The position numbers and the translations under genes are program-made. The notes beneath the pieces were generated by a model. The model had not been told where the DNA came from. It searched no databases and saw only the letters and a list, made by a program, of their open reading frames with translations. Shown in pieces: positions 1-31,929 of a DNA stretch of 64,000 nt. The stretch lies in the sequence record OQ561750; one strand, 5' to 3'. This stretch comes from Escherichia phage LHE83. Positions within the stretch are counted from its first letter, which is position 1, and each line of letters opens with the position of its first letter.

Positions 1-1076
1 ATGGTCCCGGCTGCCGGAGATACTTCACTACCTAAACGGCGGTTGATATCAGTAACTTGGAAACGTAAGCCATCACTTGAACTAACACCTACTATGGTTT
101 TAAGGTCATTTACATCAGTACGAAGACCGCTTAAACGTCCATTAATAGAAGTAGGAGTTGATTCAGAACCTATTTGGGTTTCAATTGATGTTACACGAGG
201 TTTTAAATCAACGTTGACTGAATTTTCTAGGGTAAGAGTTTTGCTTTCTAAAGTAGTTACTCGGTCCTTTATAGGCATACCGGAGAAATCAATATCAGCC
301 TTAATTTCGTCGATAGATGTATTAAAATTAATTGCAGCCGTTTCTAATACAGAAATTCGGGTATAAGCCTGTTGTTTACCTACCGTATCGGAATGAGGAC
401 CTAATTCAGCACGAATTTCATTTAATTTAATACCTAGTTGCCCGACGTCAGAATCTTCATAATTCCTTTCAAGGGTATCAATGCGAAGACGATGGTCGAC
501 CAATTGAGTGGTATTATCAATGATGCGACGTTTCATACCAGTGGCTTCGCTGGTTTCACCAGGAGGCAATGGATTGCCATTTATATCCTGGTTTTCATAA
601 TGACCTATTTCGGTTTTAAGAAGAACAATATTTTCACGTAAAGTTAAATATGGGCCGTCTTGTAAAGGGTCATGGTAACCAACGTCTTCTTTTAGGTGGT
701 CTAAATTTATGGTTAAATTGTTTAGCCCAGTAGTGGTTTCGCCTTCTACTCTCTTAAGCTCTACGATATCAACACGGTTTTTCTCAATTTGTTGGATGAC
801 GGAAATATCCGTAGCCATTTCTAAGGCATCATTGATATTATTAACGTTTTCTACCAGTTCGTTAACTTTATCTGCGGTTTTCAAATCATTCGCATCAAGA
901 GCTTCAACGTTTTTCTGAACTCCTAAAGCAGCAGCGTTCAAATTACCTTCATTGCCGTATTTTGTTTTTGCTGCAGACATACAATCACCCTCGCGTATCC
1001 ATTGGATACGCTTTTGAGGAGCATCAGGTACGCCGTCAACAAATGGTAACTCACTAAGTTCCAATTTGTTAATCAT
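1..1076 (-). CDS. wac: Fibritin (whisker antigen control), N-terminal part; gene continues beyond window start
   Basis: ATG at 1076 (minus) 10 nt after gp12 stop; N-terminus MINKLELSELPFVDGVPDAPQKRIQW read from reverse complement, with GQDINGNPL and SGMKRRIIDNT segments resembling T4 fibritin; frame appears open to window edge; absent from ORF track because no stop in window. Confidence 0.7.
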   Translation of the reverse strand, partial: MINKLELSELPFVDGVPDAPQKRIQWIREGDCMSAAKTKYGNEGNLNAAALGVQKNVEALDANDLKTADKVNELVENVNNINDALEMATDISVIQQIEKNRVDIVELKRVEGETTTGLNNLTINLDHLKEDVGYHDPLQDGPYLTLRENIVLLKTEIGHYENQDINGNPLPPGETSEATGMKRRIIDNTTQLVDHRLRIDTLERNYEDSDVGQLGIKLNEIRAELGPHSDTVGKQQAYTRISVLETAAINFNTSIDEIKADIDFSGMPIKDRVTTLESKTLTLENSVNVDLKPRVTSIETQIGSESTPTSINGRLSGLRTDVNDLKTIVGVSSSDGLRFQVTDINRRLGSEVSPAAGT

Positions 1077-1085
1077 TTTTTACCC

Positions 1086-2612
1086 TTATTCTACTTTAAT
1101 AATAAAAAGAACGGACATTGTCCATGGACGTGTTTCGTTGGCAATAAGACCTTCACTATTCAATGTGGTATGTCCATCACGGTTCCAAGGATCGGTGGTC
1201 TCAAAACCTTCGTTGGTATAATAACTACGGTTATCCCAGTCAAGGCCTTTACGAGTACCAACATATCCGGAGTTAGCGGTGTTACCAAAAGCGCCATAGT
1301 TATCATGTTCACCAAAACCACCAGCATGTTTATGATAACGTAATGCTTGGGCTTGAACGGAAGATTGCGGGAAAGAACCAACACCATTACCTAAACGGGC
1401 TTTACCTTTACCGTCTTCTCCTCGGTTACCGGCAATATGCGGGTTAACTTCGCCTTCAGAATATCCACCGACCATGTTAGCGCCACGAGGATATAATCCA
1501 CGGAAATCTGGAATAGCACCCCACCATCCCCAACGCCCACCAACAGCATTTAAATATGCACCACCAGTGTAAGTCCCACCTACACAAGCACGCCATTTAC
1601 CAGGTATATTACCTTCATTGCCACCCCACATGCAAATAGTACCCACCGGAACGCTATCTGATAATTGGTCATGGGTAACAACATCAACACCATTACGACG
1701 TAATGCTCCATTAACGTTTAAAGTACCCCATATTTCGCCGCCTGAAGTAGAAATAACGTTAGCATTATAAGCCAGCGCCGTATTACCATCGCCTTGGCCT
1801 ACAGTAGTAGATAAACGAACCAACCCAATACGTCCAGTATTACCTGTACGAGCTAACAAAGAAGCCGGTGTAACTGCGGCGGTATGGTCGGTACCATTAG
1901 ATACCATATCCCAACCTGCGAGTTTAATAATACCGCTTCGTTCTTCGGTGGAAGTTAATGTGGCTAATCCTGCCGGAGAAATAGCGATACCTACAGAAAG
2001 ATTTCCATTACCAACTTCAGCATTAGTCGCTAAACGAACTAAACCTTCATTTGTAGTCGTTGCCGTAGAATAAACCGGTAAAGCTGCTGTCGCTGCACCA
2101 ATTGCTTGCGATACTTTAAGTGGGGACATCGCTGTGGTATCATCGGTACCAGCTAATGCAGCAGGTGTAGTTGAAATCTTGATAACGCCTGTGGCGTTCT
2201 CTGTTGATAAACGGTTCTCAAATGTATAATCCATTACCGCTTTCAAAGAGGTTGCTACGATTGCGGCCTGGGGCTCTGTGCCTGCTATAGCTTCAGCGTT
2301 AGTAGCGTAACGGGTGATACCTACATAAGTTTCTGTTGCCTGAGTAGGAATATCTAAACGGGCTTTTAAAGTTGCTGGGGTCACTGCACTATAAGCATCC
2401 AATCCATCCATTACTTCTTGTGTTGTGGCCAGACGAATAATACCTTGGGATGTTTCTGTGGCTGAAGGAACATTACCTGTGACACCGATTAATGAAATAG
2501 TTGCCAATGCTTCTTGAACATTAGTAATATCAGGCGGGAAATTCGACCCAGTAGGGTCGAATGATTTGAATTCCGATTTATCACTAATGTGTTTTAGTGT
2601 GTTTGTTGACAT
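1086..2612 (-). CDS. 12: Short tail fibre protein gp12
   Basis: 508 aa; position after gp11 in conserved order; His-rich HKHAGGFGEHDNYG segment near C-terminus consistent with gp12 metal-binding receptor domain. Confidence 0.75.
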   Translation of the reverse strand: MSTNTLKHISDKSEFKSFDPTGSNFPPDITNVQEALATISLIGVTGNVPSATETSQGIIRLATTQEVMDGLDAYSAVTPATLKARLDIPTQATETYVGITRYATNAEAIAGTEPQAAIVATSLKAVMDYTFENRLSTENATGVIKISTTPAALAGTDDTTAMSPLKVSQAIGAATAALPVYSTATTTNEGLVRLATNAEVGNGNLSVGIAISPAGLATLTSTEERSGIIKLAGWDMVSNGTDHTAAVTPASLLARTGNTGRIGLVRLSTTVGQGDGNTALAYNANVISTSGGEIWGTLNVNGALRRNGVDVVTHDQLSDSVPVGTICMWGGNEGNIPGKWRACVGGTYTGGAYLNAVGGRWGWWGAIPDFRGLYPRGANMVGGYSEGEVNPHIAGNRGEDGKGKARLGNGVGSFPQSSVQAQALRYHKHAGGFGEHDNYGAFGNTANSGYVGTRKGLDWDNRSYYTNEGFETTDPWNRDGHTTLNSEGLIANETRPWTMSVLFIIKVE

Positions 2613-3277
2613 TAATATAATCTCTTATAGTAATATAAAGGAATCGTGCCGTTAACTGTACCACCTGCTAACGATTGGGTAGAGTTACCTAAGTATTCCC
2701 ACTTACCGTATCCAGCCCTTGGCTGTTGGACTATAGTATGGGAAATTGTACAACCCGATTGTTTATATGGTGAAAAAATATGATTCTGATAGTCATTGTA
2801 TTTAATATTCAAGGTAGATTGGTCTAAGGCATCAATAGCAGTTTCGGCCAAAATATAGCTATTAGCAATAGCGTCTAAAAACACATCATTTACTTTAGAT
2901 GCAACCAATACAGATGAATCGCCAACTAAGACCTCTACAGGAAGCCCAAACACTTTAATAATAACCGGGTCGCCAAGTTCACCGCCCGAAGAAATAGAAC
3001 CGGTAAATGTAATTTTATCAGATTGTTGGATAAATCCAGGTGCTCTGTTTTCTGTGGTAATAATAACAGAGTTCACAGGAAGCTCTGTTCTAAATGCAAT
3101 ATCATCTATTGCACTTTGGACCGTAGGAAAATAAACACCCTTCTGGGTTTGGTTTGCAGAAGGGCCACCAATAGGTCGTTGGTCAGCGACAGCAGTAGGC
3201 TTGTCACTGGTATAAGATAATTCCAAATAATCAGCTAAGCGGGATTTTAACCCGCTTTTCATTTCAGTTAAAGTCAT
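2612..3277 (-). CDS. 11: Baseplate wedge protein gp11
   Basis: 221 aa (T4 gp11 219 aa); start/stop overlap with gp10 and gp12; synteny. Confidence 0.7.
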   Translation of the reverse strand: MTLTEMKSGLKSRLADYLELSYTSDKPTAVADQRPIGGPSANQTQKGVYFPTVQSAIDDIAFRTELPVNSVIITTENRAPGFIQQSDKITFTGSISSGGELGDPVIIKVFGLPVEVLVGDSSVLVASKVNDVFLDAIANSYILAETAIDALDQSTLNIKYNDYQNHIFSPYKQSGCTISHTIVQQPRAGYGKWEYLGNSTQSLAGGTVNGTIPLYYYKRLY

Positions 3278-5088
3278 TATGCAATCCTCATCCAGCGATG
3301 AACAGTTAAGTATGGTGGTAGAGTATTAACCGGGATAGGAGTGGTTCCTTGAGCCTTATTAATACCGGCTTTATCTTCACGATATTTTGTATAAGCTGGT
3401 CCTTGTGAATCAGGGTCAACTAAACATCCACCTACAAAAATAGGGCCATCGTTATCAGCAATAAGGACTTTATCATCGGTATTAAGTTCAGGGATATTCT
3501 CATATTTCAAATTAGCCACATGAGCACCACCAGTACCACCGGCAGTTGACTGTGGAATACCAGCAGAATCCAGATCGTTATTATTTGCATTAAACAAAGA
3601 AGCCGCGTCTGGAGACCAACCTACCAAGAACACATCAGATAAACGCTTCCATGAACCAAAGCCCATATAAGTTTTAGGGTTATTAGGGTTCACCGTGTTC
3701 TCATAGATAGTTCCTATAGGGTAAATTAAATCAAAAAATGTTGCTGCTGTGTCTATTGTAATATTAGACGAGGCAACCGGCTCAACGTTAGGTGCAAAAG
3801 GATTATCTACATCAGTAATACGAACCTGGCCTGTTATATTAATAGATGGGCCTTTAGAAATATAGATGTTGTTGGTGTAATCCAAAATCTCATCAATTTC
3901 CATGGTAGTACCGATATCATTATTGTACCAAATTACTGTAAGAATATCACCATGTTCAAAGTTACGTCCAAATTCGATGGATTCAATCTTGTCTTCAGGA
4001 GTCAAATTAAAAATATAGTCTGATTTAGATTGGGTCCATTGACCACCTGCATTAAAACACTCGGTAGCAGTACGACCATCAGCACCTTCACAATAAAACG
4101 AAGGAAGTCCTGCCGTACCAGCTTGATGAAGTAATGTGCTATTCAGCATAACTTGGCAAGCATTTGGGTTGATAGGACTATTAACAGAAATATTCAAATC
4201 TGCGGCCGATATAACATGCGAAGTATTCAAATCAGCCACGAAAGAAGAACCAGGAACAGAAACGTTTTTAGTCAATTCTGAACTTTGGATTGTTATATCA
4301 CGGCGGTTATAAGAACTGCGCCATTGAGCAAGCCCGTCATTATATGATTTGATAATAACAGTATCACCTGCTTCACAAGGATATTTTAAACGGATGTCTT
4401 TACCATTCAAGGCAACCAATTCACCTGGTTGAGCACCCGGAGAACCGAACTCTGCAGTAGCCGCATCAAAAATATCATCAACACCGTAGAACAAATTGTT
4501 ACCACGTTGCGAAACGCTTAAACTTGCTACGTTATAAGAAAGCCCTGGGAAAATGTCTAGAAAATCTGTTTGGCCTTCAGTGGCAATAAACTGCTTAGTT
4601 GCTACAGTAGCGAGGTCGTTATTTGGAATACGGTTTACTTGCTTATTTTCAACGTATTCCCATCGTCCTGGGGCACAATAAACTAATTCAAGGTCCGAGA
4701 AGTTGCGAGCAATTTCTACTTGAGTAGCTGAACCCTTAATGGTATCACCCGTGGCAGGGATTAGGGTTACAGGGTTAGCTTGCCATGAGGAATACACGTC
4801 ACGTACACGGATAACAAAGTTATATTCTTCAGGAGAGCCTTTAGGAAGCTGAACGTTAATACGCCCACCTTGAGTATTAAGGGTATAGCTATGACCCATT
4901 ACGGCGTTCAACAAAGCACCATCTTCAGTAGAATGTTGTTTCCAAGCACCTGCTGCATGTGGGTTATTGCCATCGCCTAATTGGTAATAAAGCTCATTGA
5001 AGTTGTTATTAATTTTAAGACCACCTGCGCGCAGGTAATCACCGGACCCGTCATCAACAGCGGAACCTACTTTTAAGTCTTGTTTCAT
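3277..5088 (-). CDS. 10: Baseplate wedge protein gp10
   Basis: 603 aa (T4 gp10 602 aa); synteny, translational coupling to gp9 and gp11. Confidence 0.7.
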   Translation of the reverse strand: MKQDLKVGSAVDDGSGDYLRAGGLKINNNFNELYYQLGDGNNPHAAGAWKQHSTEDGALLNAVMGHSYTLNTQGGRINVQLPKGSPEEYNFVIRVRDVYSSWQANPVTLIPATGDTIKGSATQVEIARNFSDLELVYCAPGRWEYVENKQVNRIPNNDLATVATKQFIATEGQTDFLDIFPGLSYNVASLSVSQRGNNLFYGVDDIFDAATAEFGSPGAQPGELVALNGKDIRLKYPCEAGDTVIIKSYNDGLAQWRSSYNRRDITIQSSELTKNVSVPGSSFVADLNTSHVISAADLNISVNSPINPNACQVMLNSTLLHQAGTAGLPSFYCEGADGRTATECFNAGGQWTQSKSDYIFNLTPEDKIESIEFGRNFEHGDILTVIWYNNDIGTTMEIDEILDYTNNIYISKGPSINITGQVRITDVDNPFAPNVEPVASSNITIDTAATFFDLIYPIGTIYENTVNPNNPKTYMGFGSWKRLSDVFLVGWSPDAASLFNANNNDLDSAGIPQSTAGGTGGAHVANLKYENIPELNTDDKVLIADNDGPIFVGGCLVDPDSQGPAYTKYREDKAGINKAQGTTPIPVNTLPPYLTVHRWMRIA

Positions 5089-5948
5089 TATACTGGAACT
5101 CCAATAGTTTGGGTTTCTACGACCTTAATTGCAAGCCTCATAGGGTTGACAGAAGAAGCGGTCGCGATAATATAGTTTGATGTATCGAATTTAAAATCTA
5201 GAGAATAAATTTCGTCATCATCTGAAGTTTGTCCACGTTTAATAACACCGTATTCAGTGGAATAAATCTTTTTAGCTTGGTTGTCGATAAACACAAGATA
5301 TTCTGAAGCTTTGTAAATGGTTTCATTAGCATTCACTGCCGTAACTAAAAGTTTGAGCAATGAGTACTGGCCGGAATAAACCACCGGGATATCACGAGCG
5401 ACAGAAGATATATTATATGTCTTATTTAATGGAACTCGTTTATCGCCAAACATACTTTCAATTGAATAATCCCATACCGCAACGCCGTTTGTATCCGATA
5501 CACACCATAAAAGAACTCGTGTATAAGGTGTTACGATGCGCAAAGTCGAAGTTGAATGGCTTGCAAAAGTATCCAATATACGGATTTCAAGATAATTAGT
5601 GGAAGAAATACTTCCATTAGAGTTGATAATCTCGATTCCTTCACCGACTGCACCTTTTACAGTGGTTAATACGATAGAACCGGTAGAAGCATCGATATCT
5701 ACCAAGGAGCCTAAATCAACTGAACTTGCTTGGTCGGTATCACCAAATTTTTGATAGTAGCCTGTAGCGTGTAATTTCTGACCTGTTAATTCGCCGGTTA
5801 AAGCAGTTTTACGTTGGTCGCCAAAAGTATTATAGATGTTGTTTAAGTCAGTGTTCAGTTTAACACCGCCGTCATAAAGAATGTCGCCGGTGCTGGCATT
5901 ACCAATTTCACCGACGTCAATTAGTTCTTTACCAGTTTGCTTAATCAT
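5088..5948 (-). CDS. 9: Baseplate wedge / long-tail-fibre attachment protein gp9
   Basis: 286 aa (T4 gp9 288 aa); synteny. Confidence 0.7.
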   Translation of the reverse strand: MIKQTGKELIDVGEIGNASTGDILYDGGVKLNTDLNNIYNTFGDQRKTALTGELTGQKLHATGYYQKFGDTDQASSVDLGSLVDIDASTGSIVLTTVKGAVGEGIEIINSNGSISSTNYLEIRILDTFASHSTSTLRIVTPYTRVLLWCVSDTNGVAVWDYSIESMFGDKRVPLNKTYNISSVARDIPVVYSGQYSLLKLLVTAVNANETIYKASEYLVFIDNQAKKIYSTEYGVIKRGQTSDDDEIYSLDFKFDTSNYIIATASSVNPMRLAIKVVETQTIGVPV

Positions 5949-5993
5949 AGGTATGCCTCATTATTGATATACTGTATTTATTAAACCCCGAAA

Positions 5994-6007
5994 GGGCCTT
6001 GCGGCCC
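5994..6007 (-). terminator. GC hairpin (GGGCC-N4-GGCCC) followed by U-rich tract between gp8 and gp9; possible attenuator/terminator or RNA-stabilising stem
   Basis: Perfect 5-bp GC stem seen directly after gp8 stop on the minus strand; U-run is interrupted so termination efficiency is uncertain. Confidence 0.35.
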
Positions 6008-6010
6008 TTA

Positions 6011-7015
6011 TTAGAATTCGAAGATAATGTTAATTTCTTCTGTTTGGTCCATGGAACGAATAACCGGAGGACGGTTTTCCATATAAATCATTTCACCTGA
6101 ATGGCGGGAGAGGTCTATAACATCATAGTACTCTTTTTCGGCTTTAATGATCGGATCGGATGGGTGAGCTTTAGCTTCTAATGGATTAGAAATTATCGAA
6201 AGCTGTCTAAATCCTTTGTTACCAGGAAGACTAAATTCAGGGAAGTAAACTGAATCTAAGAATGCTTTAAAACGAATGGTATTGCCTTTAATACGATAAA
6301 TCAATCCATAATCGTCTTGCTGCCAAGTAAGATTATTCTCGTATCCCCAACGTTCTGGGTCTTCAGCAATTTCTTCTGGCCATGGAACCACAATATATTC
6401 ATTAGTGCAACGGTTGATACTTACATCAGGTGGAATCTCATACAAATATTCCCAGAGATAACCATCTCCTGTATCAACCATACCTTCCGTATCGCCTTGT
6501 CCTGCAGGGGCTTTAACCGACTGTACATTTGAAGTCCATTTACCACCAAGTTTAATACACTCGGTTTTATTATCAAGGGATAAAATAGAACATGTACCTG
6601 ATTCAGGAATATCTACACAACGATAAACCATCCATCCGGCGCCGACATCAGTACGGTTTTGCGGCTGGCTGTTCGCCACTACAATTTCACCAATCTGGAA
6701 AGTAAACGGGTTAGGATAAGAGGTGTCACCCCAGTCTTTGCGAGGGACAACACAATCCAGCATACTCTTATAAACCTTAACACAACCCATCATGTTGGTC
6801 CAGACGTCTTCTACGCCTTCAGAATCATCTACAGGATATGGTGGTGCAAAACCTGGGTCATTTTCGTTATCGGCCCATGGTCGGGCCCTTCCGAAAGATA
6901 CATACATAGTGTTCTGGTCTTCACCATCACCTATTGTTCTGTAAAAGTTGTACATTTTTTCCGTTCTAAATTTTGAAGTAACAATAGAACGGTAAACTAC
7001 TGTAGAATTAATCAT
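6011..7015 (-). CDS. 8: Baseplate wedge protein gp8
   Basis: 334 aa, identical in length to T4 gp8; synteny. Confidence 0.75.
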   Translation of the reverse strand: MINSTVVYRSIVTSKFRTEKMYNFYRTIGDGEDQNTMYVSFGRARPWADNENDPGFAPPYPVDDSEGVEDVWTNMMGCVKVYKSMLDCVVPRKDWGDTSYPNPFTFQIGEIVVANSQPQNRTDVGAGWMVYRCVDIPESGTCSILSLDNKTECIKLGGKWTSNVQSVKAPAGQGDTEGMVDTGDGYLWEYLYEIPPDVSINRCTNEYIVVPWPEEIAEDPERWGYENNLTWQQDDYGLIYRIKGNTIRFKAFLDSVYFPEFSLPGNKGFRQLSIISNPLEAKAHPSDPIIKAEKEYYDVIDLSRHSGEMIYMENRPPVIRSMDQTEEINIIFEF

Positions 7016-10130: not shown

Positions 10131-12089
10131 TTATATTGTAATTGGTTCCAACTCTATAGTTGTGTACTGAGGACGAAGGTCATCTTCAAATACGATTAAA
10201 GAACCGTCTTTGGTAAAGATGTTGTCTTGGTCTGGCCCTGCATAAAGTTCAATAGACTGGACTTCAAAACGGTCGGAAGTAAGGCCTATTGCGGCGATAT
10301 CCCAGAAAATAAAGTCCGAGTAATAATCAATTTCGCCAATAACATAGTAGACCGATTGGTCTGCAGGCGCTGCCATTTTATCGAAGTCATCTCCGGTGTA
10401 AGGTTGGATGTATTGGTTTTCAATTACATCGCCAGGTCGGAAAGGACCTATAACCATTTTACCATCGCCTCGTTCGTCTTTATCTGTGGCAACAATACGT
10501 ACGTTGTAAGATTTAACAACATCAGATACGTTTGTTGGGACGAACTCAAATTCACTAGAAGTTACAGAACGGTTGGTGTATTGATTATAGTATTTAATAC
10601 CTGCTTCAGGTGTTTTGAAGAAGTTTAATACCTCGCGAACCATTGTTACCGTAGCCGAAGAGCCAAGGATACTGTGGTCTGCATTATCAATATAAGTCAG
10701 CATTTTAGACTTGGCAAATCCGTGGTTGAATATTTCAACTTCGTTAATATAATAACGGTCTATTTGGGAAAGGATTTGAGCCGTTAACCATTGTTCGGAT
10801 TCCTGTAATTTGTTCAGTGCATATGAAACCTTAATTTTATGCTTCAAGAACAAGTAGTCAGGAGAAATAACCGAAGGGGTAATAGGTGCCAAGTTAAATT
10901 CTGAAAGATAATTTTGGATATCTTCGCGTTGAACCGCAGTCAAATACAATCCTGATTTAGGTTTAATGGTAACAAAGGCGTAACCCGGTTTATTTGGGTC
11001 TGTAAAGGTTTGTACTGCTTGTACAATAGAACCAAATCGCTCCGAAACGAATGTATCGTAATCTGTACCAGTTACAGCACGCATCTGGGCTTCACGTTTA
11101 ACTACAGCCAATTCACGAATACGTTCAATATCTTCAGGGTCACCACCACCATCAGCACCTACATAATCCGGGTTTTCATCGTAGTTTTCTGTAATTTTTT
11201 CAACTGTAATATACGCCAAAGAATCCGCATAACTAAAGTCCACTGCCCCGTTAGCAACTTCACCATCTGTACGAAGGTATTCTATAACAATGGTAGCATC
11301 TTTAACAGGTTTTAAACCACCAATATAATTAGCTTCTAATACCCCACCTGCAACTGATTTTTCAGCAACACCTTCACCAAAGAAGAATTCAGTATTACCA
11401 TCTACGGTTTCACGCATATAGTAAATTGTTGATGTACTACCAGCATGAACCATGGATTTATTAGTCCAGTTAGTCCATTCTGCGCCATCGACATAAAGTT
11501 TAACTTCCTGTCTATCAATATCCGGGTCACGAATAAGAATAGGAGTTTTAGGGTCATACTTAAGTTCAGTACGGATAATACGACCTTGTGCTAAAGATAC
11601 GATAGGAAGATATTGGTTATTAACATCACGTACGGCAATAACGTTTTCCGTGGTAACAAAAGCATACGGGTCTGCTGAAGTATCACGGGCATAGGCCAAG
11701 AATTTAGTACCACGTGGGATACGAATATTCTTTTCATTCAGGGCTTGGGTACAGGTCAACATGATACTTGTTTTGGCTGCTGATTTAGAACTTGGCAAAT
11801 AGCCGTTATCCTGTGCAGCCTGGACGACGGAGGAACGCAAGTTAGCAGTACCGATGAAAGATTCATATACCGCGGTATTAGCAAACTGCTGCATATACAG
11901 GGTGTTGTAAGCTAACATGTCAATCAGGATATTCATTCGCGAACCAACGAAATCGTAATCCTTAAATTCGTCCTGGCTAGAAAGCCAATCGATAATATTC
12001 TTTTTAATCTCTTCAAACGTAGCTCCCACAAATACTTTTGGGATAGCGTTAACGGTTCTTGTTAATTGGTAATTCGTAGGAGTAGCCAT
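10131..12089 (-). CDS. 6: Baseplate wedge protein gp6
   Basis: 652 aa (T4 gp6 660 aa); synteny. Confidence 0.7.
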   Translation of the reverse strand: MATPTNYQLTRTVNAIPKVFVGATFEEIKKNIIDWLSSQDEFKDYDFVGSRMNILIDMLAYNTLYMQQFANTAVYESFIGTANLRSSVVQAAQDNGYLPSSKSAAKTSIMLTCTQALNEKNIRIPRGTKFLAYARDTSADPYAFVTTENVIAVRDVNNQYLPIVSLAQGRIIRTELKYDPKTPILIRDPDIDRQEVKLYVDGAEWTNWTNKSMVHAGSTSTIYYMRETVDGNTEFFFGEGVAEKSVAGGVLEANYIGGLKPVKDATIVIEYLRTDGEVANGAVDFSYADSLAYITVEKITENYDENPDYVGADGGGDPEDIERIRELAVVKREAQMRAVTGTDYDTFVSERFGSIVQAVQTFTDPNKPGYAFVTIKPKSGLYLTAVQREDIQNYLSEFNLAPITPSVISPDYLFLKHKIKVSYALNKLQESEQWLTAQILSQIDRYYINEVEIFNHGFAKSKMLTYIDNADHSILGSSATVTMVREVLNFFKTPEAGIKYYNQYTNRSVTSSEFEFVPTNVSDVVKSYNVRIVATDKDERGDGKMVIGPFRPGDVIENQYIQPYTGDDFDKMAAPADQSVYYVIGEIDYYSDFIFWDIAAIGLTSDRFEVQSIELYAGPDQDNIFTKDGSLIVFEDDLRPQYTTIELEPITI

Positions 12090-12090
12090 T

Positions 12091-14178
12091 TTAATTCCTA
12101 GTAGGAGATTCTAAACAAGGTATGCAAATGGAAAGGGATGGAAATGCAATCGTTAAACCGAATATTCCCAGCATCTTATTAATCCATTGTACCACCTTAC
12201 TTAAGGATAATGTTGATATTTGGTTATACATTGATTTGCACAAGTCTTTCATTGACCTGGAACCATCAGTAAATTCGTGATATAAAGATTTTGCTTTAGT
12301 TACTGAGTTCTCGTATATAACCATGATATCATCTACAGTAGCTCCGAGCATACCGAGAAGTTCTTCCATTTGAGCCACAATAGGAAGTTTTTTGAATTCT
12401 TCTAAAGCCATATCTAATACATCAGAAACGGAGGTTTGACTTTCGGTAATAGAGTTCTTAATCTGATTATATTTATTCTTTAAAAGTTCGAGTGCAGCTT
12501 CAGCTTGTGCTAATGCGGCTTCCTTCTGAGCAGTTAGCTCGTCTGTAACTTTTTCGTACATTCCTGAAAGATATTGTTTAAATTCAATAGCTTGTTTTTG
12601 TACTTCTTGCTTTTTGAGCTTAATCTCATTCCACAGATTGAGTGCCTGGGTTTTAAGAGCCTCAATCATTGCATAAGCTTCGTCTATTTTCTGGTCTACC
12701 TTTTCCATAACCATTTGATAAACATCTGATGCTGTGAATCCTGGAAAGTTACCGCTCATTATCATGTCCAGTGGTTTAACTTGCTTCATCATTTCCTTGA
12801 CCGCAGTAATAACGCTCCAAACTGGGTTCGGAACTATAGGAGGCATACTCCATATTTGAGCGAGGTCTACACACAGTTTTGATAATGCAACCCCAGCCAT
12901 AAGCAATTGAGACCAGGCCCAGTCATACAAGTCTGTAATTGCATCAATAAGGTCACGCGAATACATCTTGACGCGTTCAACCGAATAATCGTATGCAGAC
13001 CCAATGGCAGAATAAATCGATTGGATGGTTTCTTCTAAATTAAAGTTTTTCCATGCTTCTTTTAATTTCTGTACACCATCACCTGAAGTGCAGAGGTCTT
13101 CTAGGTCAATAGTCATGCCCATAATAGTAATCGAGGGTAAAAAGCTTTTAAGTAAGTCCCACCCACCGCCAACAATATTCAAGACCTGTGATATGGCATC
13201 TTTAAATGCAAGAAAAGCCATTTGCTGAACATATTGACACATAGCAACAGCCGAGTTGCCTAGCTCTTCCATTGCGACCGATAGCTTACTATAACCAGAA
13301 TCGAAGAATTTTTCCCAATCGGTTCCACCAGATGATGGCCATCCAGGGAGCATATCCCAATATAATTTGAATGAATTCCTAGATGTATTCCATGAAGCCA
13401 TAATCGCATTGGTCAATCCGTTGTAAGGGAATTCCGCTGTAAAAGGAACACAGCTTATTGCCCTGGCTCGCCCGGTTATTTCTGGCGGTAAAGACCCGAT
13501 GGATACCGGTCCCGGAATCGGAGTTCCTGGGATACTCATATCAACATCTAGATTTAATACCAGTCCAACATAAGTACAAGGTTTTGTCTCATAGTACTTC
13601 AAATAAGCCCTGCGGGAGTCACCAAGGCCGTTAAAGTTGACATACATATGATAATCAGCCGTAACTGCAATCATCGTCCTGGGGTCCATTCTGGGGCCTT
13701 GTGATGTCCATACACCACCACAGTTTTCGATGCGATACATATCATATTCAATAGATGTTTTATACAATACAGATTTTGATAAATCAGCACCGTACCAATC
13801 ATTACCGGGCAAAAGAGTTGCACCAATCGATTCTACATAATTTTCTAAATCCAATTGCGTAATAAAGAATATTCCGAGTTTAGCACACCAGATACCTTGA
13901 CTTGTTCCATCTTCCGGCGGGGGAGGTGCAGGAAAAGTTTCGGACTTATTACCAAATGGATTTTGTGTGTATAAATGTGTAGCTAGTGGAATAATCTCGG
14001 TATCCCATTCAACGCCATTCCCAGGTTGAATAAAAGCACCTGTTGGGTTATATAATTCCCATTTAACCCGGCGATATTCACCGGGTCCTACTGCGTCATC
14101 ACAGGGACTTGTTACAGTCCCTACCACTTCATCAACTTTATCGTAGTAATTCATATTAACCGACCTGTACGTTGCCAC
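12091..14178 (-). CDS. Large hypothetical protein in baseplate operon (695 aa) occupying the position of T4 genes 5.1-5.4
   Basis: Uninterrupted ORF abutting gp6 start and overlapping gp5 stop; GTG at 14178 or ATG at 14154 one nt after gp5 TAA; long coiled-coil-like C-terminal half and hydrophobic C-terminal tail; no homolog recognised. Confidence 0.65.
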   Translation of the reverse strand: MATYRSVNMNYYDKVDEVVGTVTSPCDDAVGPGEYRRVKWELYNPTGAFIQPGNGVEWDTEIIPLATHLYTQNPFGNKSETFPAPPPPEDGTSQGIWCAKLGIFFITQLDLENYVESIGATLLPGNDWYGADLSKSVLYKTSIEYDMYRIENCGGVWTSQGPRMDPRTMIAVTADYHMYVNFNGLGDSRRAYLKYYETKPCTYVGLVLNLDVDMSIPGTPIPGPVSIGSLPPEITGRARAISCVPFTAEFPYNGLTNAIMASWNTSRNSFKLYWDMLPGWPSSGGTDWEKFFDSGYSKLSVAMEELGNSAVAMCQYVQQMAFLAFKDAISQVLNIVGGGWDLLKSFLPSITIMGMTIDLEDLCTSGDGVQKLKEAWKNFNLEETIQSIYSAIGSAYDYSVERVKMYSRDLIDAITDLYDWAWSQLLMAGVALSKLCVDLAQIWSMPPIVPNPVWSVITAVKEMMKQVKPLDMIMSGNFPGFTASDVYQMVMEKVDQKIDEAYAMIEALKTQALNLWNEIKLKKQEVQKQAIEFKQYLSGMYEKVTDELTAQKEAALAQAEAALELLKNKYNQIKNSITESQTSVSDVLDMALEEFKKLPIVAQMEELLGMLGATVDDIMVIYENSVTKAKSLYHEFTDGSRSMKDLCKSMYNQISTLSLSKVVQWINKMLGIFGLTIAFPSLSICIPCLESPTRN

Positions 14179-15943
14179 CAGATACTTTAGCTAATGAACC
14201 GCCATCCATATGCACAGTATTTGATGCGTTTAAATTAATGTTCGTCGCTGCAAAATTTAAATCTTGTTCGACATTTACATCCATATTTTGAGCATTGATT
14301 GTGGCCTTTTGTTTAACGCTTATATCTGCATTCTGGTTGACATTAACTGTTGTATCTTTTTCAACCGTAATATATGCTTCTTGTTCAACAGTTATATCAG
14401 CAGTACCCATAATAACTATTTTAACGTTTCCTTTAACAAGCAGAGTTCCATTACCTTCTACAGTTTTGGTTTCATTCCCTCGAATATGAATGCTTTCAGA
14501 CCCATCAGTTTGACGGCGCACGTTTGCCATATTATAATAGGTTTCATCGCCACCAACGTTGACTTTATTATTACCACCAACATAAGTATTTGAATCGCCT
14601 TGGGTCATATAATAACCATCGGCTACCGTCTTAGAAGTTTTACGTCCATCAGGAGCAACTTCTTCATAACTACCGGTAGGATGGATTAAACGGTATCGTT
14701 CTTGCCCTGGGGTATTATCGAATTCTTGGATATGCCCGCCTTCAGTTTGCATGGTTTGGACATATGGATATTCGCCTTTATAACTAGAATCAGGTTCTTT
14801 AAAAAGAATCCTTGTGTCTTCTGGAGTCCACGGGTCGGCAGGGTCTGAATTTGTAGGGGCCACAAAGGTTTGAATCATTCTATACGAACGGCCATTAAAT
14901 GACCTTTCTTTAGGGGCCATAATACCATATGATTCCATGTTACCTGTGAGGATAATCATTGACACCCTTGATGCGCGACCTTTAGTTTGGTTAAACCATA
15001 CTGAATTACGAGCTTCCTCAAATGCCTTTTTATAATCGCCTATTAGCATTGCACTAAGCATTCCACGGAATTTAGCAAGCCCGCCTAACCCCATTTGGAA
15101 AGCCATGTTTTCAAGAGCCATTTGTCTTGAACGGTTTTCTTTATTGTAAACAGGACCCACAACACTATGCCGGCCTATATCATTTTGGACTTTTTTAAGG
15201 TCTTCTTGGAATAACTTAGAAGCCTCGTCCATTGATATTGCACCAGGGTTACCTTTAACTTCTCGTCCTACCTGATTAGATAATATTTTGTTTATTTGAT
15301 TCATATCTCTAATAGGTTGTGGTGTAATAAGGTGACCTATACCGATAGTAGGGTATCCTTCGGTGTCCCAATATACCTTCAGTCGAAGCCCTTCATCACG
15401 GTGAAGCATGTTTTCTATTGTGAAATTAGGATTATCATCAGGCTTAACCTGGCTCAAATCTAAACCGTCCGGATTAATACCTACATCAGTGTTTGCATCT
15501 TGTATTACGTTGGAAGTGGCATCATATCCAACTTCACCACCTCGGTTTAAAGCCGCGGCATCATTACCTAAATAAAGTGGGTATTGACCTGTCGGGTCGC
15601 TAAAACCTTCATTAGGATTAGCCTTTTGTCTTGAAGCGGAACCGTATGTACCAAGGACAAGTCCGTTTAATTTCCACTTATCAAGAAAGTGACCATAAAC
15701 TTGTGTACCGGGGACCATACCAGTCATAGCGGTTTGGATACCTGAAACAGAGGCAGAAGATGTAGGCATTAATACCGACATCCATGGTAAATCTTCTGTA
15801 CGAAGGCCTTTTACAGGGCCTTGTACTTTTTCATATGGATGCATACCCCATACGCGCACGCGTACTCGGCCTTGTTGGAGTGGGTCCATTCGGTCTTCAA
15901 CTACACCGACGAACCAACTTACATTATCAGACATGTTAATCAT
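14156..15943 (-). CDS. 5: Baseplate central hub / cell-puncturing protein gp5 with lysozyme domain
   Basis: 595 aa; N-terminus MSDNVSWFVGVVEDRMDPLQ; internal lysozyme domain DEGLRLKVYWDTEGYPTIGIGHLI matching T4 lysozyme catalytic region; C-terminal V/N-rich beta-helix repeats. Confidence 0.85.
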   Translation of the reverse strand: MINMSDNVSWFVGVVEDRMDPLQQGRVRVRVWGMHPYEKVQGPVKGLRTEDLPWMSVLMPTSSASVSGIQTAMTGMVPGTQVYGHFLDKWKLNGLVLGTYGSASRQKANPNEGFSDPTGQYPLYLGNDAAALNRGGEVGYDATSNVIQDANTDVGINPDGLDLSQVKPDDNPNFTIENMLHRDEGLRLKVYWDTEGYPTIGIGHLITPQPIRDMNQINKILSNQVGREVKGNPGAISMDEASKLFQEDLKKVQNDIGRHSVVGPVYNKENRSRQMALENMAFQMGLGGLAKFRGMLSAMLIGDYKKAFEEARNSVWFNQTKGRASRVSMIILTGNMESYGIMAPKERSFNGRSYRMIQTFVAPTNSDPADPWTPEDTRILFKEPDSSYKGEYPYVQTMQTEGGHIQEFDNTPGQERYRLIHPTGSYEEVAPDGRKTSKTVADGYYMTQGDSNTYVGGNNKVNVGGDETYYNMANVRRQTDGSESIHIRGNETKTVEGNGTLLVKGNVKIVIMGTADITVEQEAYITVEKDTTVNVNQNADISVKQKATINAQNMDVNVEQDLNFAATNINLNASNTVHMDGGSLAKVSGGNVQVG

Positions 15944-16545
15944 TAGAGGGCTTTCTCCATTTCTCTAATTAAAGCGGAAACAAAGGACTCGATGTCATTA
16001 GGGTCTATAATCTTTATTTCGCGCTTATATTCATTTTTACGAATGGCGTCCTCGTAAATATCTACTGCAGCCAAAGGACCTTCATATTGAGGATAACGTT
16101 TTTCTGTATCACCTTTATCGTACCAAGTATAAGGATTTTCCGGAGTATTTACTAGATTCCAGAATTTCTCACCCTTTTCATTGACATGATAAAGGACTTG
16201 GTTTCCGCCTGCAGTAGCATAACGTTGAATAGCTGCTTGATACGCAGATTCTTGGCCTGTAATCCAGCCGTAATAAGGGTCATAGATATTGTTACACATT
16301 AAAAGGACCCAATATAATTGCACGTTACCATAAAGTTGATGGGCTAATTCTTCTGGACGAGGGGCCCCACTGATATAATATGTTTTAAGTGTATAATTTT
16401 TAGCCACTTTATCAAAATATTCTTTATAGTTTCTAAATATATCAGTCATCGGTACGCTCAGTACATCGGCATCAGTTAATGAGCCGGAATCTGGCTTGAC
16501 TGTTTTTGATTCGTAATTTATAGGATCGAAAAATGAGAAGAGCAT
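15943..16545 (-). CDS. 53: Baseplate wedge protein gp53
   Basis: 200 aa (T4 gp53 196 aa); immediately upstream of gp5 with ATGA overlap; late promoter upstream. Confidence 0.65.
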   Translation of the reverse strand: MLFSFFDPINYESKTVKPDSGSLTDADVLSVPMTDIFRNYKEYFDKVAKNYTLKTYYISGAPRPEELAHQLYGNVQLYWVLLMCNNIYDPYYGWITGQESAYQAAIQRYATAGGNQVLYHVNEKGEKFWNLVNTPENPYTWYDKGDTEKRYPQYEGPLAAVDIYEDAIRKNEYKREIKIIDPNDIESFVSALIREMEKAL

Positions 16546-16557
16546 AGTGCCTCCGAG

Positions 16558-16565
16558 TATAAATA
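16558..16565 (+). promoter_or_regulatory. T4-type late promoter (TATAAATA) for gp4
   Basis: Exact TATAAATA 25 nt upstream of gp4 ATG, followed by AGGAGG SD. Confidence 0.6.
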
Positions 16566-16572
16566 ATATTAA

Positions 16573-16580
16573 TATTTATA
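16573..16580 (-). promoter_or_regulatory. T4-type late promoter (TATAAATA on minus strand) for gp53-wac operon
   Basis: Reverse complement reads TATAAATA about 28 nt upstream of gp53 start; divergent with the gp4 promoter. Confidence 0.6.
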
Positions 16581-16590
16581 AGGAGGCACT

Positions 16591-17040
16591 ATGGCCTACT
16601 CAGGGAAATTTAAACCTACAAACTTACAAAAATATAAAGGTGATTGGAAGAAAATCCAATATCGTTCCTCTTGGGAAGCATGGCTTATGCGTTGGCTTGA
16701 CAACCATCCTAATGTCGTCCAGTGGAACTCGGAAGAGGTTGTGATTCCATATTTTAGTAACGCTGATGGAAAGAAACGTCGGTATTTTATGGACTTCTGG
16801 GTGAAGTTCGACAATGGTCAACAATTCTTTTTCGAAGTCAAACCTTTTAAAGAGACCCATCCTCCAGCGGCGCCTGCTAAAATGACTACAGCTGCTAAAA
16901 AGAGATATATCAACGAACATTATACATGGAGTGTAAATAAAGATAAATGGAAAGCTGCTAAAGCTACAGCAGATAAAATGGGAATTAATTTCAGATTGAT
17001 TACCGAAAACTCACTGAAAAAATTAGGATGGAAAGGATGA
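16591..17040 (+). CDS. 4: Head completion protein gp4
   Basis: 149 aa (T4 gp4 150 aa); divergent from gp53 as in T4; strong SD. Confidence 0.65.
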
Positions 17041-17864
17041 GTATATTTTCTTACATCAACGAGGCTACTGAAACTACAAAAGGTTCCAAGCCTACTCGTT
17101 CAGAACAACAATGGATAACTTTAGGCGTTGAATATGCCAACGCTAAGGCTAAAGGTGTTTCGGCTAAGAAATTCGCTGAAGATAAAGGCATCAAGTATTC
17201 TAGCTTTACATCTGCGATGTCTCGATACTCGAGTCGAATTAAAACTGCTGTACAGGTTGAAAAACTTCAGAAGAAACCTGGCAATAAATTAACCAAAGCC
17301 GAACGTCAATTAATTTTGGTGAATAGTTTTAGAAAGAGTATTCGCGATAAGATTGCTAACGAAGGCGCTGCCGTAAACAATAAATCAGCTAAATGGTTTA
17401 CAGAAACATTAAAGAAAGGAATTCGTGGACACCAGGTATCTAAACCGTCTCCTGGTAAGCTTTATGCTTATATCTATGATGCCAAACATAAGGATACCCT
17501 ACCATACTGGGACAAATATCCTTTAATAATTTATCTTGGGTTAGGTAAGCATAATTTAATGTACGGACTGAACTTACACTATATTCCACCTAAAGCACGT
17601 CAGCAATTTCTGGAAGAATTGCTGAAGCAATACGCGAGTACGCCTACCATTACGAACTCGACTAAATTAAAAATCGATTGGAGTAAGGTAAAAGGATTCG
17701 CTGGCGCCGACGTGATGATTAAGGCTTATATCCCTGGAAATATTAAGGGACCTTTAGTAGAGATAAAACCGTCTGATTGGGCTAATGTAATAGGATTACC
17801 ACTCCAGCAATTTGTATCGAAAGGTAAGCGTTATTCAGCTCAGAAAGTATGGAAGAATTCATAA
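17028..17864 (+). CDS. 2: DNA end protector protein gp2
   Basis: 278 aa (T4 gp2 274 aa); synteny 4-2-3-1; alternative start at 17037 (ATGA overlap with gp4 stop). Confidence 0.65.
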
Positions 17865-21965: not shown

Positions 21966-22039
21966 GGCCCTGTAGCTCAATGGTTAGCAGCAGTCCCCTC
22001 ATAAGGGAAAGGTTACCGGTTCAAATCCGGTCTGGGCCA
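21966..22039 (+). tRNA. tRNA with anticodon CAU (Met, or Ile2-type reading AUA as in the T4 tRNA-Ile)
   Basis: 74-nt cloverleaf: 7-bp acceptor stem (one U-U mismatch), anticodon loop CUCAUAA, T-arm ACCGG-TTCAAAT-CCGGT; position matches T4 tRNA cluster. Confidence 0.65.
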
Positions 22040-22751: not shown

Positions 22752-22826
22752 GTCCCGCTGGTGTAATGGATAGCATACGATCCTTCTAAGTTTGCGGTCC
22801 TGGTTCGATCCCAGGGCGGGATACCA
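22752..22826 (+). tRNA. tRNA-Arg (anticodon UCU), CCA encoded
   Basis: 75 nt; 7-bp acceptor stem, anticodon loop CUUCUAA, T-arm CCTGG-TTCGATC-CCAGG, 3-prime ACCA. Confidence 0.7.
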
Positions 22827-31440: not shown

Positions 31441-31929
31441 ATGGATATTTTTGATATGTTACGTCAAGACGAAGGTCTTGATTTAAATCTTTATAAAGAC
31501 ACTGAAGGTTATTGGACTATTGGTATTGGCCAGTTAGTTACCAAGAACCCATCTAAAGACGTTGCTCGCGCTGAACTTGATAAGCTTATGGGTCGAGTTT
31601 GCAACGGTCGTATTACTATGGCTGAAGCTGAGCAACTCTTTAACCGATCGGTTGAAAATGCTCGTAGAGCTATTCTGCGTAATCCTAAATTGAAACCTGT
31701 TTATGATGTATTAGACGAAGTTCGTCGTTGTGCTTTAATTAACATGGTCTTCCAAATGGGTGAAGCAGGTGTAGCAGGGTTCACTAACTCTTTACGTATG
31801 CTCCAACAGAAACGTTGGGACGATGCGGCAGTTAACCTGGCTCAATCCCGTTGGTATAAACAAACTCCAAATCGTGCTAAGCGCGTGATTTCAACATTTA
31901 AAACCGGCACATGGGCTGCTTATAGATAA
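31441..31929 (+). CDS. e: Endolysin (T4 lysozyme, gene e)
   Basis: 162 aa; [30 protein letters not shown] with catalytic Glu11/Asp20/Thr26 equivalents; high similarity to T4 lysozyme along full length. Confidence 0.9.

What the first reader, a model, noticed from the sequence alone, without database searches (positions are those of the whole stretch)
12091..14178. Unrecognised 695-aa ORF wedged between baseplate hub gp5 and gp6, where T4 carries 5.1-5.4 including the PAAR spike tip
The gp53-gp5-gp6-...-wac order is otherwise T4-like with near-identical protein lengths, but the slot after gp5 holds one long ORF that overlaps the gp5 stop and abuts the gp6 start, implying co-translation with baseplate proteins. 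No small Cys/His-rich PAAR-like ORF is visible anywhere between gp5 and gp6. The protein has an N-terminal Gly/Pro-rich half, a long coiled-coil segment (roughly residues 470-600) and a hydrophobic C-terminal tail. It could be a replacement spike-tip or hub-associated protein, or an ejected/virion-associated effector.
Basis: partly seen in the sequence, partly recalled or inferred. Interest (0 to 1): 0.75.

Follow-up and report, generated by a model that had tools for sequence, protein, structure and literature searches.

The report
Non-PAAR spike-tip protein of T4-like phage
This 687-residue late gene just after the tail-spike gene 5 is the ortholog of phage RB43 orf205w, a large protein of unknown fold that a 2025 preprint proposed as a replacement for the small PAAR tip (gp5.4) on the T4 cell-puncturing spike, and here it proves to be swapped together with the last ~75 residues of the spike itself.

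Summary
The ORF is real. It lies on the minus strand in the late operon 53-5-X-6-7. Its likely start is the ATG at 14154, giving 687 aa and 76.7 kDa, not the 695 aa read from the GTG.

The window is a Dhakavirus of the Bp7/WG01 type. No gp5.4/PAAR gene exists in the window or anywhere in the WG01 genome.

The protein is 43% identical over its full length to RB43 orf205w. Mattenberger et al. (bioRxiv 2025, PMC12407873) proposed orf205w as a novel spike tip, based on a 17.7 Å cryo-EM map showing a larger tip.

New evidence found here:
- Among 50,697 phage records, 215 carry X and 1,375 carry gp5.4, with no overlap.
- Near-identical genome pairs differ only by a cassette made of the gp5 C-terminal 75-90 codons plus X, in place of the gp5 C-terminus plus 5.1 and 5.4. 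The pairs are window/IME08 (91.6% nt upstream, 85% downstream of the cassette) and G8/T4 (98%/97%).
- gp5 tips come in two types that co-segregate with the tip gene.
- X stays next to gp5 even where gp6 does not follow.
- AF2 models are confident, yet neither the whole protein nor its N-terminal domain matches any PDB fold, PAAR included.

Attachment, copy number and function remain unproven.

The parts
12091..14154 (-). X: 687-aa (76.7 kDa, pI 4.7) orf205w-family protein, putative non-PAAR spike tip (stop codon 12091-12093 included)
   Evidence: ORF. Full-length match to phrog_5296, unknown function. 100% identical to Bp7, WG01 and E33 'hypothetical protein'. 43% identical to RB43 orf205w. 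AF2 pLDDT 87, pTM 0.78.
14176..14178 (-). Upstream in-frame GTG that produces the mechanical 695-aa ORF; probably not the real start
   Evidence: Sequence. Homolog alignment begins at the ATG Met. Of the 15 listed cluster members, 14 are 687 aa and one is 695 aa.
13285..14154 (-). X residues 1-290: Gly/Pro-rich mixed alpha/beta N-terminal domain with no known fold
12178..13284 (-). X residues 291-659: all-helical region, including a long hairpin (H475-529, H538-575) and the most conserved segments (321-340, 461-480, 641-660)
12115..12177 (-). X residues 660-680: conserved hydrophobic C-terminal tail (MLGIFGLTIAFPSLSICIPC), modelled partly as a beta strand
   Evidence: Family-mean Kyte-Doolittle (19-residue window) peaks at 1.77, the only strongly hydrophobic stretch. 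C677 and P679 are nearly invariant. E673-682 in the model.
14156..15943 (-). Gene 5: baseplate hub / tail lysozyme / beta-helical spike (595 aa)
   Evidence: Pfam Gp5_OB 3e-61, Phage_lysozyme, Gp5_C. 64% identical to T4 gp5.
14159..14383 (-). gp5 residues 521-595: 'X-type' spike tip module, ending ...GGSLAKVSGGNVQVG, co-inherited with X
   Evidence: Window gp5 residues 1-520 are 96.9% identical to IME08 gp5, but the last 75 aa only 26.7%. The terminal motif is shared with RB43, Lw1, S13, Pm5461, G8, KM16, KP15 and a metagenomic relative. tblastn of the last 114 aa reaches the C-terminus only in X-carrying phages.
12101..14383 (-). The exchanged cassette (gp5 tip module plus X), 2,283 bp with no DNA similarity to the congeneric phage IME08, which carries gp5 tip + 5.1 + 5.4 (about 1 kb) there
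   Evidence: blastn of window against IME08: 91.6% identity for 17100..14384, nothing for 14383..12101, 85% from 12100 onward. The same boundaries appear in G8 against T4.
10131..12089 (-). Gene 6: baseplate wedge subunit, starting 1 nt after the X stop
   Evidence: Five gp6 Pfam domains. Junction sequence.
15943..16545 (-). Gene 53: baseplate wedge subunit, first gene of the late operon
   Evidence: ORF. WG01 annotation.
16573..16580 (-). T4-type late promoter TATAAATA upstream of gene 53. No other copy lies between here and gene 6, so X is read as a late gene on the 53-5-X-6 transcript
   Evidence: Pattern search. Equivalent divergent promoters are annotated in Pm5461. The five matches in the window are no more than chance, so the assignment rests on position, not on enrichment.

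Best explanation
X is a virion protein that caps the distal end of the gp5 beta-helical spike. It takes the place that the 97-aa PAAR protein gp5.4 occupies in T4.

It is made late, from the 53-5-X-6 transcript, immediately after gp5. It most likely docks on a matching 'X-type' gp5 C-terminal platform (...GSLxKxxGGxVQVG), which differs from the gp5.4-binding platform (...SGQYTxDGSRIDIG). On sheath contraction it would be the first part of the tail driven through the outer membrane into the periplasm.

Shown here:
- position in a late operon;
- orthology to RB43 orf205w;
- absence of any PAAR gene in the genome;
- strict mutual exclusion with gp5.4;
- co-transfer with the gp5 tip as one recombination cassette;
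- conserved adjacency to gp5 in three different downstream contexts;
- no resemblance to PAAR, gp5.1 or any solved fold.

Taken from the literature: RB43 virions carry a larger density at the spike tip, into which an orf205w model can be fitted.

Inferred, not shown:
- physical binding to gp5, and the copy number (1 or 3);
- which part of X binds. My guess is the hydrophobic elements 342-349 and 660-682, by analogy with the hydrophobic gp5-gp5.4 interface;
- that the roughly 370-residue helical region acts on the envelope or on periplasmic partners after penetration.
For: Orthology: 43% identity over 682 aa to RB43 orf205w, E = 0. In Lw1 and RB43 the gene sits between gp5 and gp6.

Literature: RB43, RB16 and Lw1 lack gene 5.4. 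orf205w fills the 5.1-5.4 locus. [quoted passage not shown]

No PAAR gene: the gp5.4 HMM and tblastn are negative over the whole WG01 genome, while the T4 control scores E = 4e-56.

Mutual exclusion: 215 records carry X and 1,375 carry gp5.4. A composite query gives 1,502 records and 1,506 places, and the 4 extra places are gp5.4 duplicates. Per-genus counts are exactly additive: Klebsiella 113+161=274, Escherichia 26+578=604, Enterobacter 20+36=56, Shigella 3+80=83.

Cassette swap: in window versus IME08 (same genus) and in G8 versus T4 (same genus, 98%/97% nt identity in the flanks), similarity is lost from gp5 codon ~502-520 to ~10 nt before the gp6 ATG.

Two gp5 tip types co-segregate with the tip gene.

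Linkage to gp5 rather than gp6: in Cronobacter phage S13, opposite-strand genes follow X. In a 31%-identical metagenomic relative, gp25 follows X, and the upstream ORF ends ...GSELAVFTGGTVSVG.

Late promoter upstream of gene 53 only, and 1-nt intergenic gaps.

Purifying selection: pN 0.19 against pS 0.76.
Against: - No direct evidence that the protein is in virions of any phage. I found no proteomics that detected it. In the Morganella MP1 virion MS table no protein is listed between gp141 and gp147, the stretch where gp5 and any X homolog would lie, so that study is uninformative, and I did not check that MP1 carries X.
- The preprint authors could not produce an orf205w-gp5beta complex. Their AlphaFold model was of low confidence, and the map is 17.7 Å with C6 symmetry imposed, so assigning the density to orf205w is tentative.
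- At 77 kDa the protein is about 8 times larger than any PAAR tip.
- It shows no internal three-fold repeat that would match the trimeric spike.
- I could not model the complex: the prediction tool takes single chains and reports no interface metrics.
Confidence: 0.75

Rival explanations
1. X is a non-virion assembly factor or chaperone specific to the X-type gp5 tip, for example one that folds or caps the beta-helix during hub assembly and then leaves. The enlarged RB43 tip density would then come from something else.
For: Co-inheritance with the gp5 tip fits a dedicated chaperone as well as a structural partner. T4 has precedents for late, non-structural baseplate and fibre chaperones (gp51, gp57A, gp38; established T4 knowledge). 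No proteomic detection was found.
Against: The RB43 map differs from T4 only at the spike tip, and nothing else in the locus could supply the extra mass. X is perfectly complementary to a structural protein, gp5.4, not to a chaperone. A 77-kDa, strongly conserved protein is large for a chaperone of a 75-residue beta-helix end.
Confidence: 0.08
2. X is mainly an ejected, membrane-active cargo: a tape-measure-like or pore-forming helical protein carried in or on the hub. It would insert into the host envelope to form or prime the DNA conduit, and capping the tip would be incidental.
Confidence: 0.12
3. X is a selfish or accessory insert in a recombination hot spot (the T4 5.1-5.4 region also hosts the segC homing endonuclease). 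It would have a function unrelated to the tail, such as superinfection exclusion or host takeover.
For: The region is plastic, and in T4 it carries a homing endonuclease. The cassette moves between genera.
Against: The gene lies in a late structural operon with 1-nt junctions. It has no nuclease or other enzymatic signature. It always travels with a changed gp5 tip, which an unrelated passenger gene would not require. It never co-occurs with gp5.4, which an unrelated accessory gene would be free to do.
Confidence: 0.03

Closest known systems
RB43 orf205w (also RB16 and Lw1 gp195), the putative RB43 spike tip protein of Mattenberger et al., bioRxiv 2025 (PMC12407873)
   Same: Same family: 43% identity over the full length. 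Same length (687 vs 690 aa). Same locus directly after gene 5. Same architecture, with an N-terminal alpha/beta part followed by an all-helical rest. The partner gp5 has the same type of C-terminus (...GGxVQVG). The genome has no gene 5.4.
   Different: The host genome here is a Tevenvirinae Dhakavirus, much closer to T4 than RB43 is. The gene arrived as a cassette in a genome whose congener IME08 keeps 5.1+5.4. The AF2 model here is confident (pLDDT 87), whereas the preprint reports low confidence. Neither protein has been shown biochemically to bind gp5.
T4 gp5.4 / PAAR-repeat spike tips (Pfam PF05488; PDB 4KU0; T6SS PAAR proteins)
   Same: Same genomic slot (between genes 5 and 6, late). 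Proposed same position on the blunt end of a trimeric beta-helical spike. Strictly alternative to it in phage genomes.
Fused apex tips of P2 gpV / phi92 gp138-type spikes (HxH iron-binding apex)
   Same: Another non-PAAR way to finish a contractile-tail spike. It shows that tip solutions are interchangeable (the preprint introduction).
   Different: Those tips are small C-terminal domains of the spike protein itself and carry HxH motifs. X is a separate, large gene product, and the X-type gp5 ends without an HxH motif.
T6SS 'evolved' PAAR and VgrG proteins carrying large C-terminal effector or transmembrane domains
   Same: The concept of a large extra mass, possibly membrane-active, riding on the spike tip into the target cell envelope.
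   Different: Those proteins attach through a PAAR or VgrG domain, and X has none. No toxin or enzymatic domain is detectable in X. This is an analogy from general knowledge only.
Phage tail tape-measure proteins (phrog_305, phrog_8462; PF10145-containing proteins)
   Same: Long helical, Ala/Gln/Glu/Lys-rich region giving weak HMM matches, E 4e-4 to 1e-8, over residues ~360-660 only.
   Different: No PhageMin_Tail or other tape-measure signature domain. The genome keeps its own gp29 tape measure. X has a globular N-terminal domain and is modelled as a compact protein (pTM 0.78).

Membership tests
orf205w family (RB43-type putative spike tip; phrog_5296) | Full-length sequence homology to RB43 orf205w | tested here: met
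   BLASTP 43% identity, residues 1-682 against 3-689, E = 0. phrog_5296 matched over 1-682 of 685 positions, 1195 bits.
orf205w family (RB43-type putative spike tip; phrog_5296) | Gene lies directly downstream of gene 5, in place of 5.1-5.4, in a genome without gene 5.4 | tested here: met
   The same layout is seen in Lw1, RB43, Pm5461, KP15, G8 and KM16.
orf205w family (RB43-type putative spike tip; phrog_5296) | About 690 aa, with an N-terminal alpha/beta part and an all-helical remainder | tested here: met
   AF2 secondary structure: mixed alpha/beta to about residue 290, helices from 294 to 664.
orf205w family (RB43-type putative spike tip; phrog_5296) | Physical presence at the tip of the gp5 spike in the virion | not testable with these tools
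   The only evidence is the published 17.7 Å RB43 map and the cassette co-inheritance found here.
PAAR / gp5.4 (PF05488) | Match to the PAAR Pfam model or to a gp5.4 profile | tested here: not met
   No PF05488 hit at E<=1. hhalign of the gp5.4 profile against the X profile gives probability 0.2%.
PAAR / gp5.4 (PF05488) | Small (~95-aa) conical beta fold | tested here: not met
PAAR / gp5.4 (PF05488) | Conserved His/His/His/Cys set (H14, H46, H56, C83 are invariant in gp5.4 homologs) | tested here: not met
   The invariant gp5.4 columns are listed. X has no invariant His at all and only 3 His in 687 aa.
T4 gp5.1 | Sequence or profile similarity to gp5.1 | tested here: not met
   tblastn negative. 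hhalign probability 0.1%.
Tail tape-measure protein | Tape-measure signature domain, and being the genome's only tape measure | tested here: not met
ClyA-type alpha-pore-forming toxins / T3SS translocators | Significant structural or sequence match to the family | tested here: not met

The most novel reading that the evidence does not exclude
X is a new class of spike tip for contractile injection systems. It would be a 77-kDa protein of novel fold that both caps the spike and, once driven into the periplasm, uses its helical domain and hydrophobic tail to engage the inner membrane or periplasmic partners. This would change which host envelope factors (LPS core, PpiD-like chaperones) the phage needs for DNA delivery. 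The 'gp5 tip + X' cassette would be a horizontally mobile penetration module that T4-like phages trade for the PAAR module.
Probability: 0.25. Interest if true: 0.75.

Novelty: new member of a known kind. Interest (0 to 1): 0.5.

Why it matters
PAAR tips are among the most conserved parts of contractile injection systems. The 2025 preprint showed that T4 gp5.4 matters for DNA delivery into deep-rough LPS mutants.

A family of 215 sequenced T4-like phages has replaced it with an unrelated protein eight times larger and with no known fold. Many of these are Klebsiella, Enterobacter and Cronobacter phages considered for therapy.

This analysis adds a practical handle. Phage G8 is essentially T4 (98%/97% nt identity on either side) carrying the gp5-tip + X cassette, and Bp7/WG01 against IME08 is a second such pair. 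These natural near-isogenic pairs make two questions directly testable with T4 genetics: what the tip does, and why two types exist. The finding also gives a name to a gene that every database record lists as 'hypothetical protein'.

Tried and rejected
- A missed PAAR gene elsewhere: rejected for gp5.4-type proteins by tblastn and HMM over the whole WG01 genome. ORF198, a 96-aa ORF after gene 54, was inspected and is not PAAR-like. A very divergent PAAR was not excluded with the general Pfam model on every small ORF.
- Relation to gp5.1: rejected. The apparent tblastn extension of X 438-480 into the gp5.1 C-terminus in PG7 and KAW1E185 is an artefact of the composite query reading through an in-frame stop.
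- Second tape measure: rejected.
- Pore-forming toxin similarity: too weak to use.
- Internal three-fold repeat: none found.
- Virion proteomics in the literature: the Morganella MP1 table lists no protein where gp5 and any X homolog would lie, and I did not check that MP1 has X. The ValerieMcCarty phages are jiaodaviruses with gp5.4. The KP15/KP27 and phiEap-3 papers and the slopekvirus preprint contain no virion proteomics. The JS98 and CfP1 papers are not held.
- A linker-fused gp5(3)+X AlphaFold run was considered and dropped.
- NCBIfam: no hit.
Full report
OBSERVATION

The window carries a minus-strand ORF at 12091..14178, 695 aa from a GTG.

The sequence shows the gp5 stop TAA at 14158-14156, one spacer base, then an ATG at 14154. 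All 61 aligned homologs begin at that Met. Of the 15 listed members of the 34-member 90% cluster, 14 are 687 aa and one is 695 aa. The real product is therefore most likely 687 aa, 76.7 kDa, pI 4.7.

The stop codon TAA (12093-12091) is followed by one base and then the gp6 ATG.

The flanking genes are gp53, gp5 (Pfam Gp5_OB 3e-61, lysozyme, Gp5_C), gp6 (five gp6 domains) and gp7.

The only T4-type late promoter sequence in this stretch, TATAAATA, lies just upstream of gene 53 at 16573-16580. It is paired with a divergent copy for gene 4. X is therefore read as a late gene of the 53-5-X-6 transcript.

- the N-terminal 290 aa are 18% Gly+Pro;
- residues 475-575 are long helices;
- residues 660-680 form the only strongly hydrophobic stretch.

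IDENTITY OF THE PHAGE AND THE PROTEIN

The protein is 100% identical to 'hypothetical protein' of Escherichia phages Bp7, WG01 and vB_EcoM-E33, genus Dhakavirus. It matches phrog_5296 (unknown function) end to end. It has no Pfam or NCBIfam family.

By tblastn, 215 phage records carry it, and 213 of them match over at least 80% of its length. They include phages of Klebsiella (113), Escherichia (26), Enterobacter (20), Cronobacter (18), Citrobacter (13) and Proteus (7).

The family is narrow. A profile search of 1.84 billion representative proteins found only about eight full-length clusters. The remaining hits were fragments, or weak matches restricted to the helical region of tape-measure-like proteins.

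IS THERE A PAAR GENE?

T4 has 5.1, segC, 5.3 and 5.4 (PAAR) between genes 5 and 6. gp5.4 homologs are very conserved, at 57-91% identity, and nearly all listed carry PF05488.

Neither tblastn nor an HMM built from 25 gp5.4 homologs finds anything in the window or in the remainder of the WG01 genome. The best E-value was 3.4, against 4e-56 for the T4 control.

Profile-profile comparison of gp5.4 with X gives a probability of 0.2%, and of gp5.1 with X 0.1%. X is therefore neither a PAAR protein nor a fusion of the T4 genes it displaces.

LITERATURE

[quoted passage not shown] It reports the following:
- RB43, RB16 and Lw1 have no gene 5.4.
- The 5.1-5.4 locus holds orf205w, about 690 aa. Residues 1-220 are mixed alpha/beta and the rest is helical.
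- Co-expression with a gp5 beta-helix fragment failed.
- A 17.7 Å map of the RB43 baseplate differs from T4 only in a larger spike-tip density, into which a low-confidence AlphaFold model 'can fit'.

The window protein is 43% identical to RB43 orf205w over its full length, E = 0. It is 43.8% identical to Lw1 gp195.

NEW COMPARATIVE EVIDENCE

(1) Mutual exclusion.
- An X fragment alone hits 215 records.
- gp5.4 alone hits 1,375 records in 1,379 places, meaning four records carry a duplicated gp5.4.
- A composite X+gp5.4 query hits 1,502 records in 1,506 places, and none has both parts joined.
- Per-genus counts are exactly additive: Klebsiella 113+161=274, Escherichia 26+578=604, Enterobacter 20+36=56, Shigella 3+80=83.
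- No sequenced phage has both genes.

(2) Cassette exchange inside genera.
- IME08, also a Dhakavirus, has 5.1+5.4.
- Window and IME08 DNA are 91.6% identical from 17100 down to 14384, which is gp5 codon 520. They are unrelated from 14383 to 12101. They are 85% identical again from 12100, which is 11 nt before the gp6 ATG.
- Phage vB_EcoM_G8 is classified in Tequatrovirus, T4's own genus, and it carries X (72% identical to the window protein).
- G8 is 98.3% identical to T4 up to gp5 codon ~502, and 97% identical again from 10 nt before gene 6.

(3) Two gp5 tip types.
- In all X carriers examined, gp5 ends ...G(S/A/T/V)LxK(I/V)(T/S)G(G/A)(T/N)VQVG. These are the window, G8, KM16, KP15, RB43, Lw1, S13 and Pm5461.
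- In gp5.4 carriers (T4, KAW1E185, IME08, PG7), gp5 ends ...SGQYT(I/V)DGSRIDIG.
- Window gp5 is 96.9% identical to IME08 gp5 over residues 1-520, but only 26.7% over the last 75. It is 47% and 39% identical to RB43 gp5 over the same two parts.
- tblastn with the last 114 aa reaches the C-terminus only in X carriers.

(4) Linkage is to gp5, not gp6.
- In Cronobacter phage S13 the order is gp48-gp53-tail protein-gp5-X, followed by opposite-strand genes.
- In a 31%-identical metagenomic relative, X is followed by gp25. It is preceded by a beta-helix ORF ending ...GSELAVFTGGTVSVG.

(5) Carriers span Dhakavirus, Tequatrovirus, Moonvirus, Bragavirus, Slopekvirus and Pseudotevenvirus.

(6) The gene is under purifying selection: pN 0.19 against a saturated pS of 0.76, window versus G8.

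STRUCTURE

With 61 homologs, AF2 gives a confident monomer model: pLDDT 87, pTM 0.78. It has a mixed alpha/beta N-terminal part to about residue 290, long helices from 294 to 664, and a terminal strand at 673-682.

- Foldseek against the PDB returns nothing with E<0.1.

Neither the N-terminal domain nor the whole protein has a recognisable relative among solved structures. In particular, there is no relative among PAAR or other spike-tip structures. No internal repeat matches the three-fold spike.

MECHANISM

The best-supported reading has four parts:
- X is made with gp5 from the late transcript.
- X binds the X-type gp5 platform.
- X forms the distal end of the puncturing device.
- X enters the envelope first on contraction.

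The genetic coupling to the gp5 tip is shown here. The enlarged tip is shown in RB43 by others.

Binding, stoichiometry and function after penetration are inferred. By analogy with the hydrophobic gp5-gp5.4 interface described in the preprint, I suggest a candidate docking surface: the two most hydrophobic conserved elements, 342-349 and 660-682, both modelled as strands. This is a guess. I could not inspect coordinates.

The helical region may act on the membrane or on periplasmic partners. The T4 tip complex is reported to contact PpiD (PMC7600766, abstract seen), and gp5.4 is needed on deep-rough LPS hosts. A different tip could therefore change those host dependencies.

RIVALS

- A tip-specific assembly chaperone.
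- A primarily membrane-active ejected cargo, which is compatible with the tip model.
- An unrelated passenger gene.

The strict complementarity with a structural protein, the co-swapped gp5 terminus and the RB43 map argue against the first and third.

NOVELTY AND SCORE

The family and its proposed role are already in a 2025 preprint. The finding is therefore a further member of a described, still putative, kind.

The following appear to go beyond what I read there and give direct experimental handles:
- the exclusivity statistics;
- the within-genus cassette boundaries;
- the two gp5 tip classes;
- the T4-like carrier G8;
- the confident no-known-fold model.

Interest 0.5.

Noticed in passing
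L002 (T4 NC_000866 74000-84000) positions 5356 and 5466; L013 (phage G8): The left boundary of the G8/T4 cassette lies about 110 bp downstream of the annotated T4 replication origin oriE inside gene 5. T4 homology ends at locus position 5466. The replaced T4 segment contains the segC homing endonuclease. An origin or a homing endonuclease could promote exchange of this cassette, but this was not tested.
   Followed up: no
L007 (Cronobacter phage S13 NC_028773) 1-6055: S13 has a rearranged hub cluster: gp48, gp53, a 385-aa 'tail protein', gp5, then X. A block of small opposite-strand hypothetical genes follows instead of gp6.
   Followed up: partly
L011 (IME08 NC_014260) 4766-5625: The IME08 record annotates genes 5.1, 5.4 and 6 with starts that overlap the preceding genes by 35-100 nt. 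The 5.1 product has an N-terminal extension not seen in T4. These are probably mis-called start codons.
   Followed up: no
window 21966-22039 and 22752-22826 (+): Two tRNA genes, tRNA-Met (CAT) and tRNA-Arg (TCT), lie in the region WG01 annotates as Trna.2-Trna.4 ORFs.
   Followed up: no
window 31441-31923 (+): A second T4-lysozyme-like sequence, 43% identical to the gp5 lysozyme domain (E 6e-31). It is presumably the gene e endolysin.
   Followed up: no
WG01 NC_031928 121345-127457 (outside the window; L004 29946-36058): Three tandem Alt-like ADP-ribosyltransferase paralogs of 631-707 aa follow the hub gene cluster.
   Followed up: no
phage collection: Many database records and UniRef name gp5.4 homologs 'phospholipase' or 'PAAR motif of membrane proteins'. 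Four records carry two gp5.4 places. One Klebsiella phage record (PP355766, 288,685 bp) is far larger than its relatives and may be a co-assembly.
   Followed up: no
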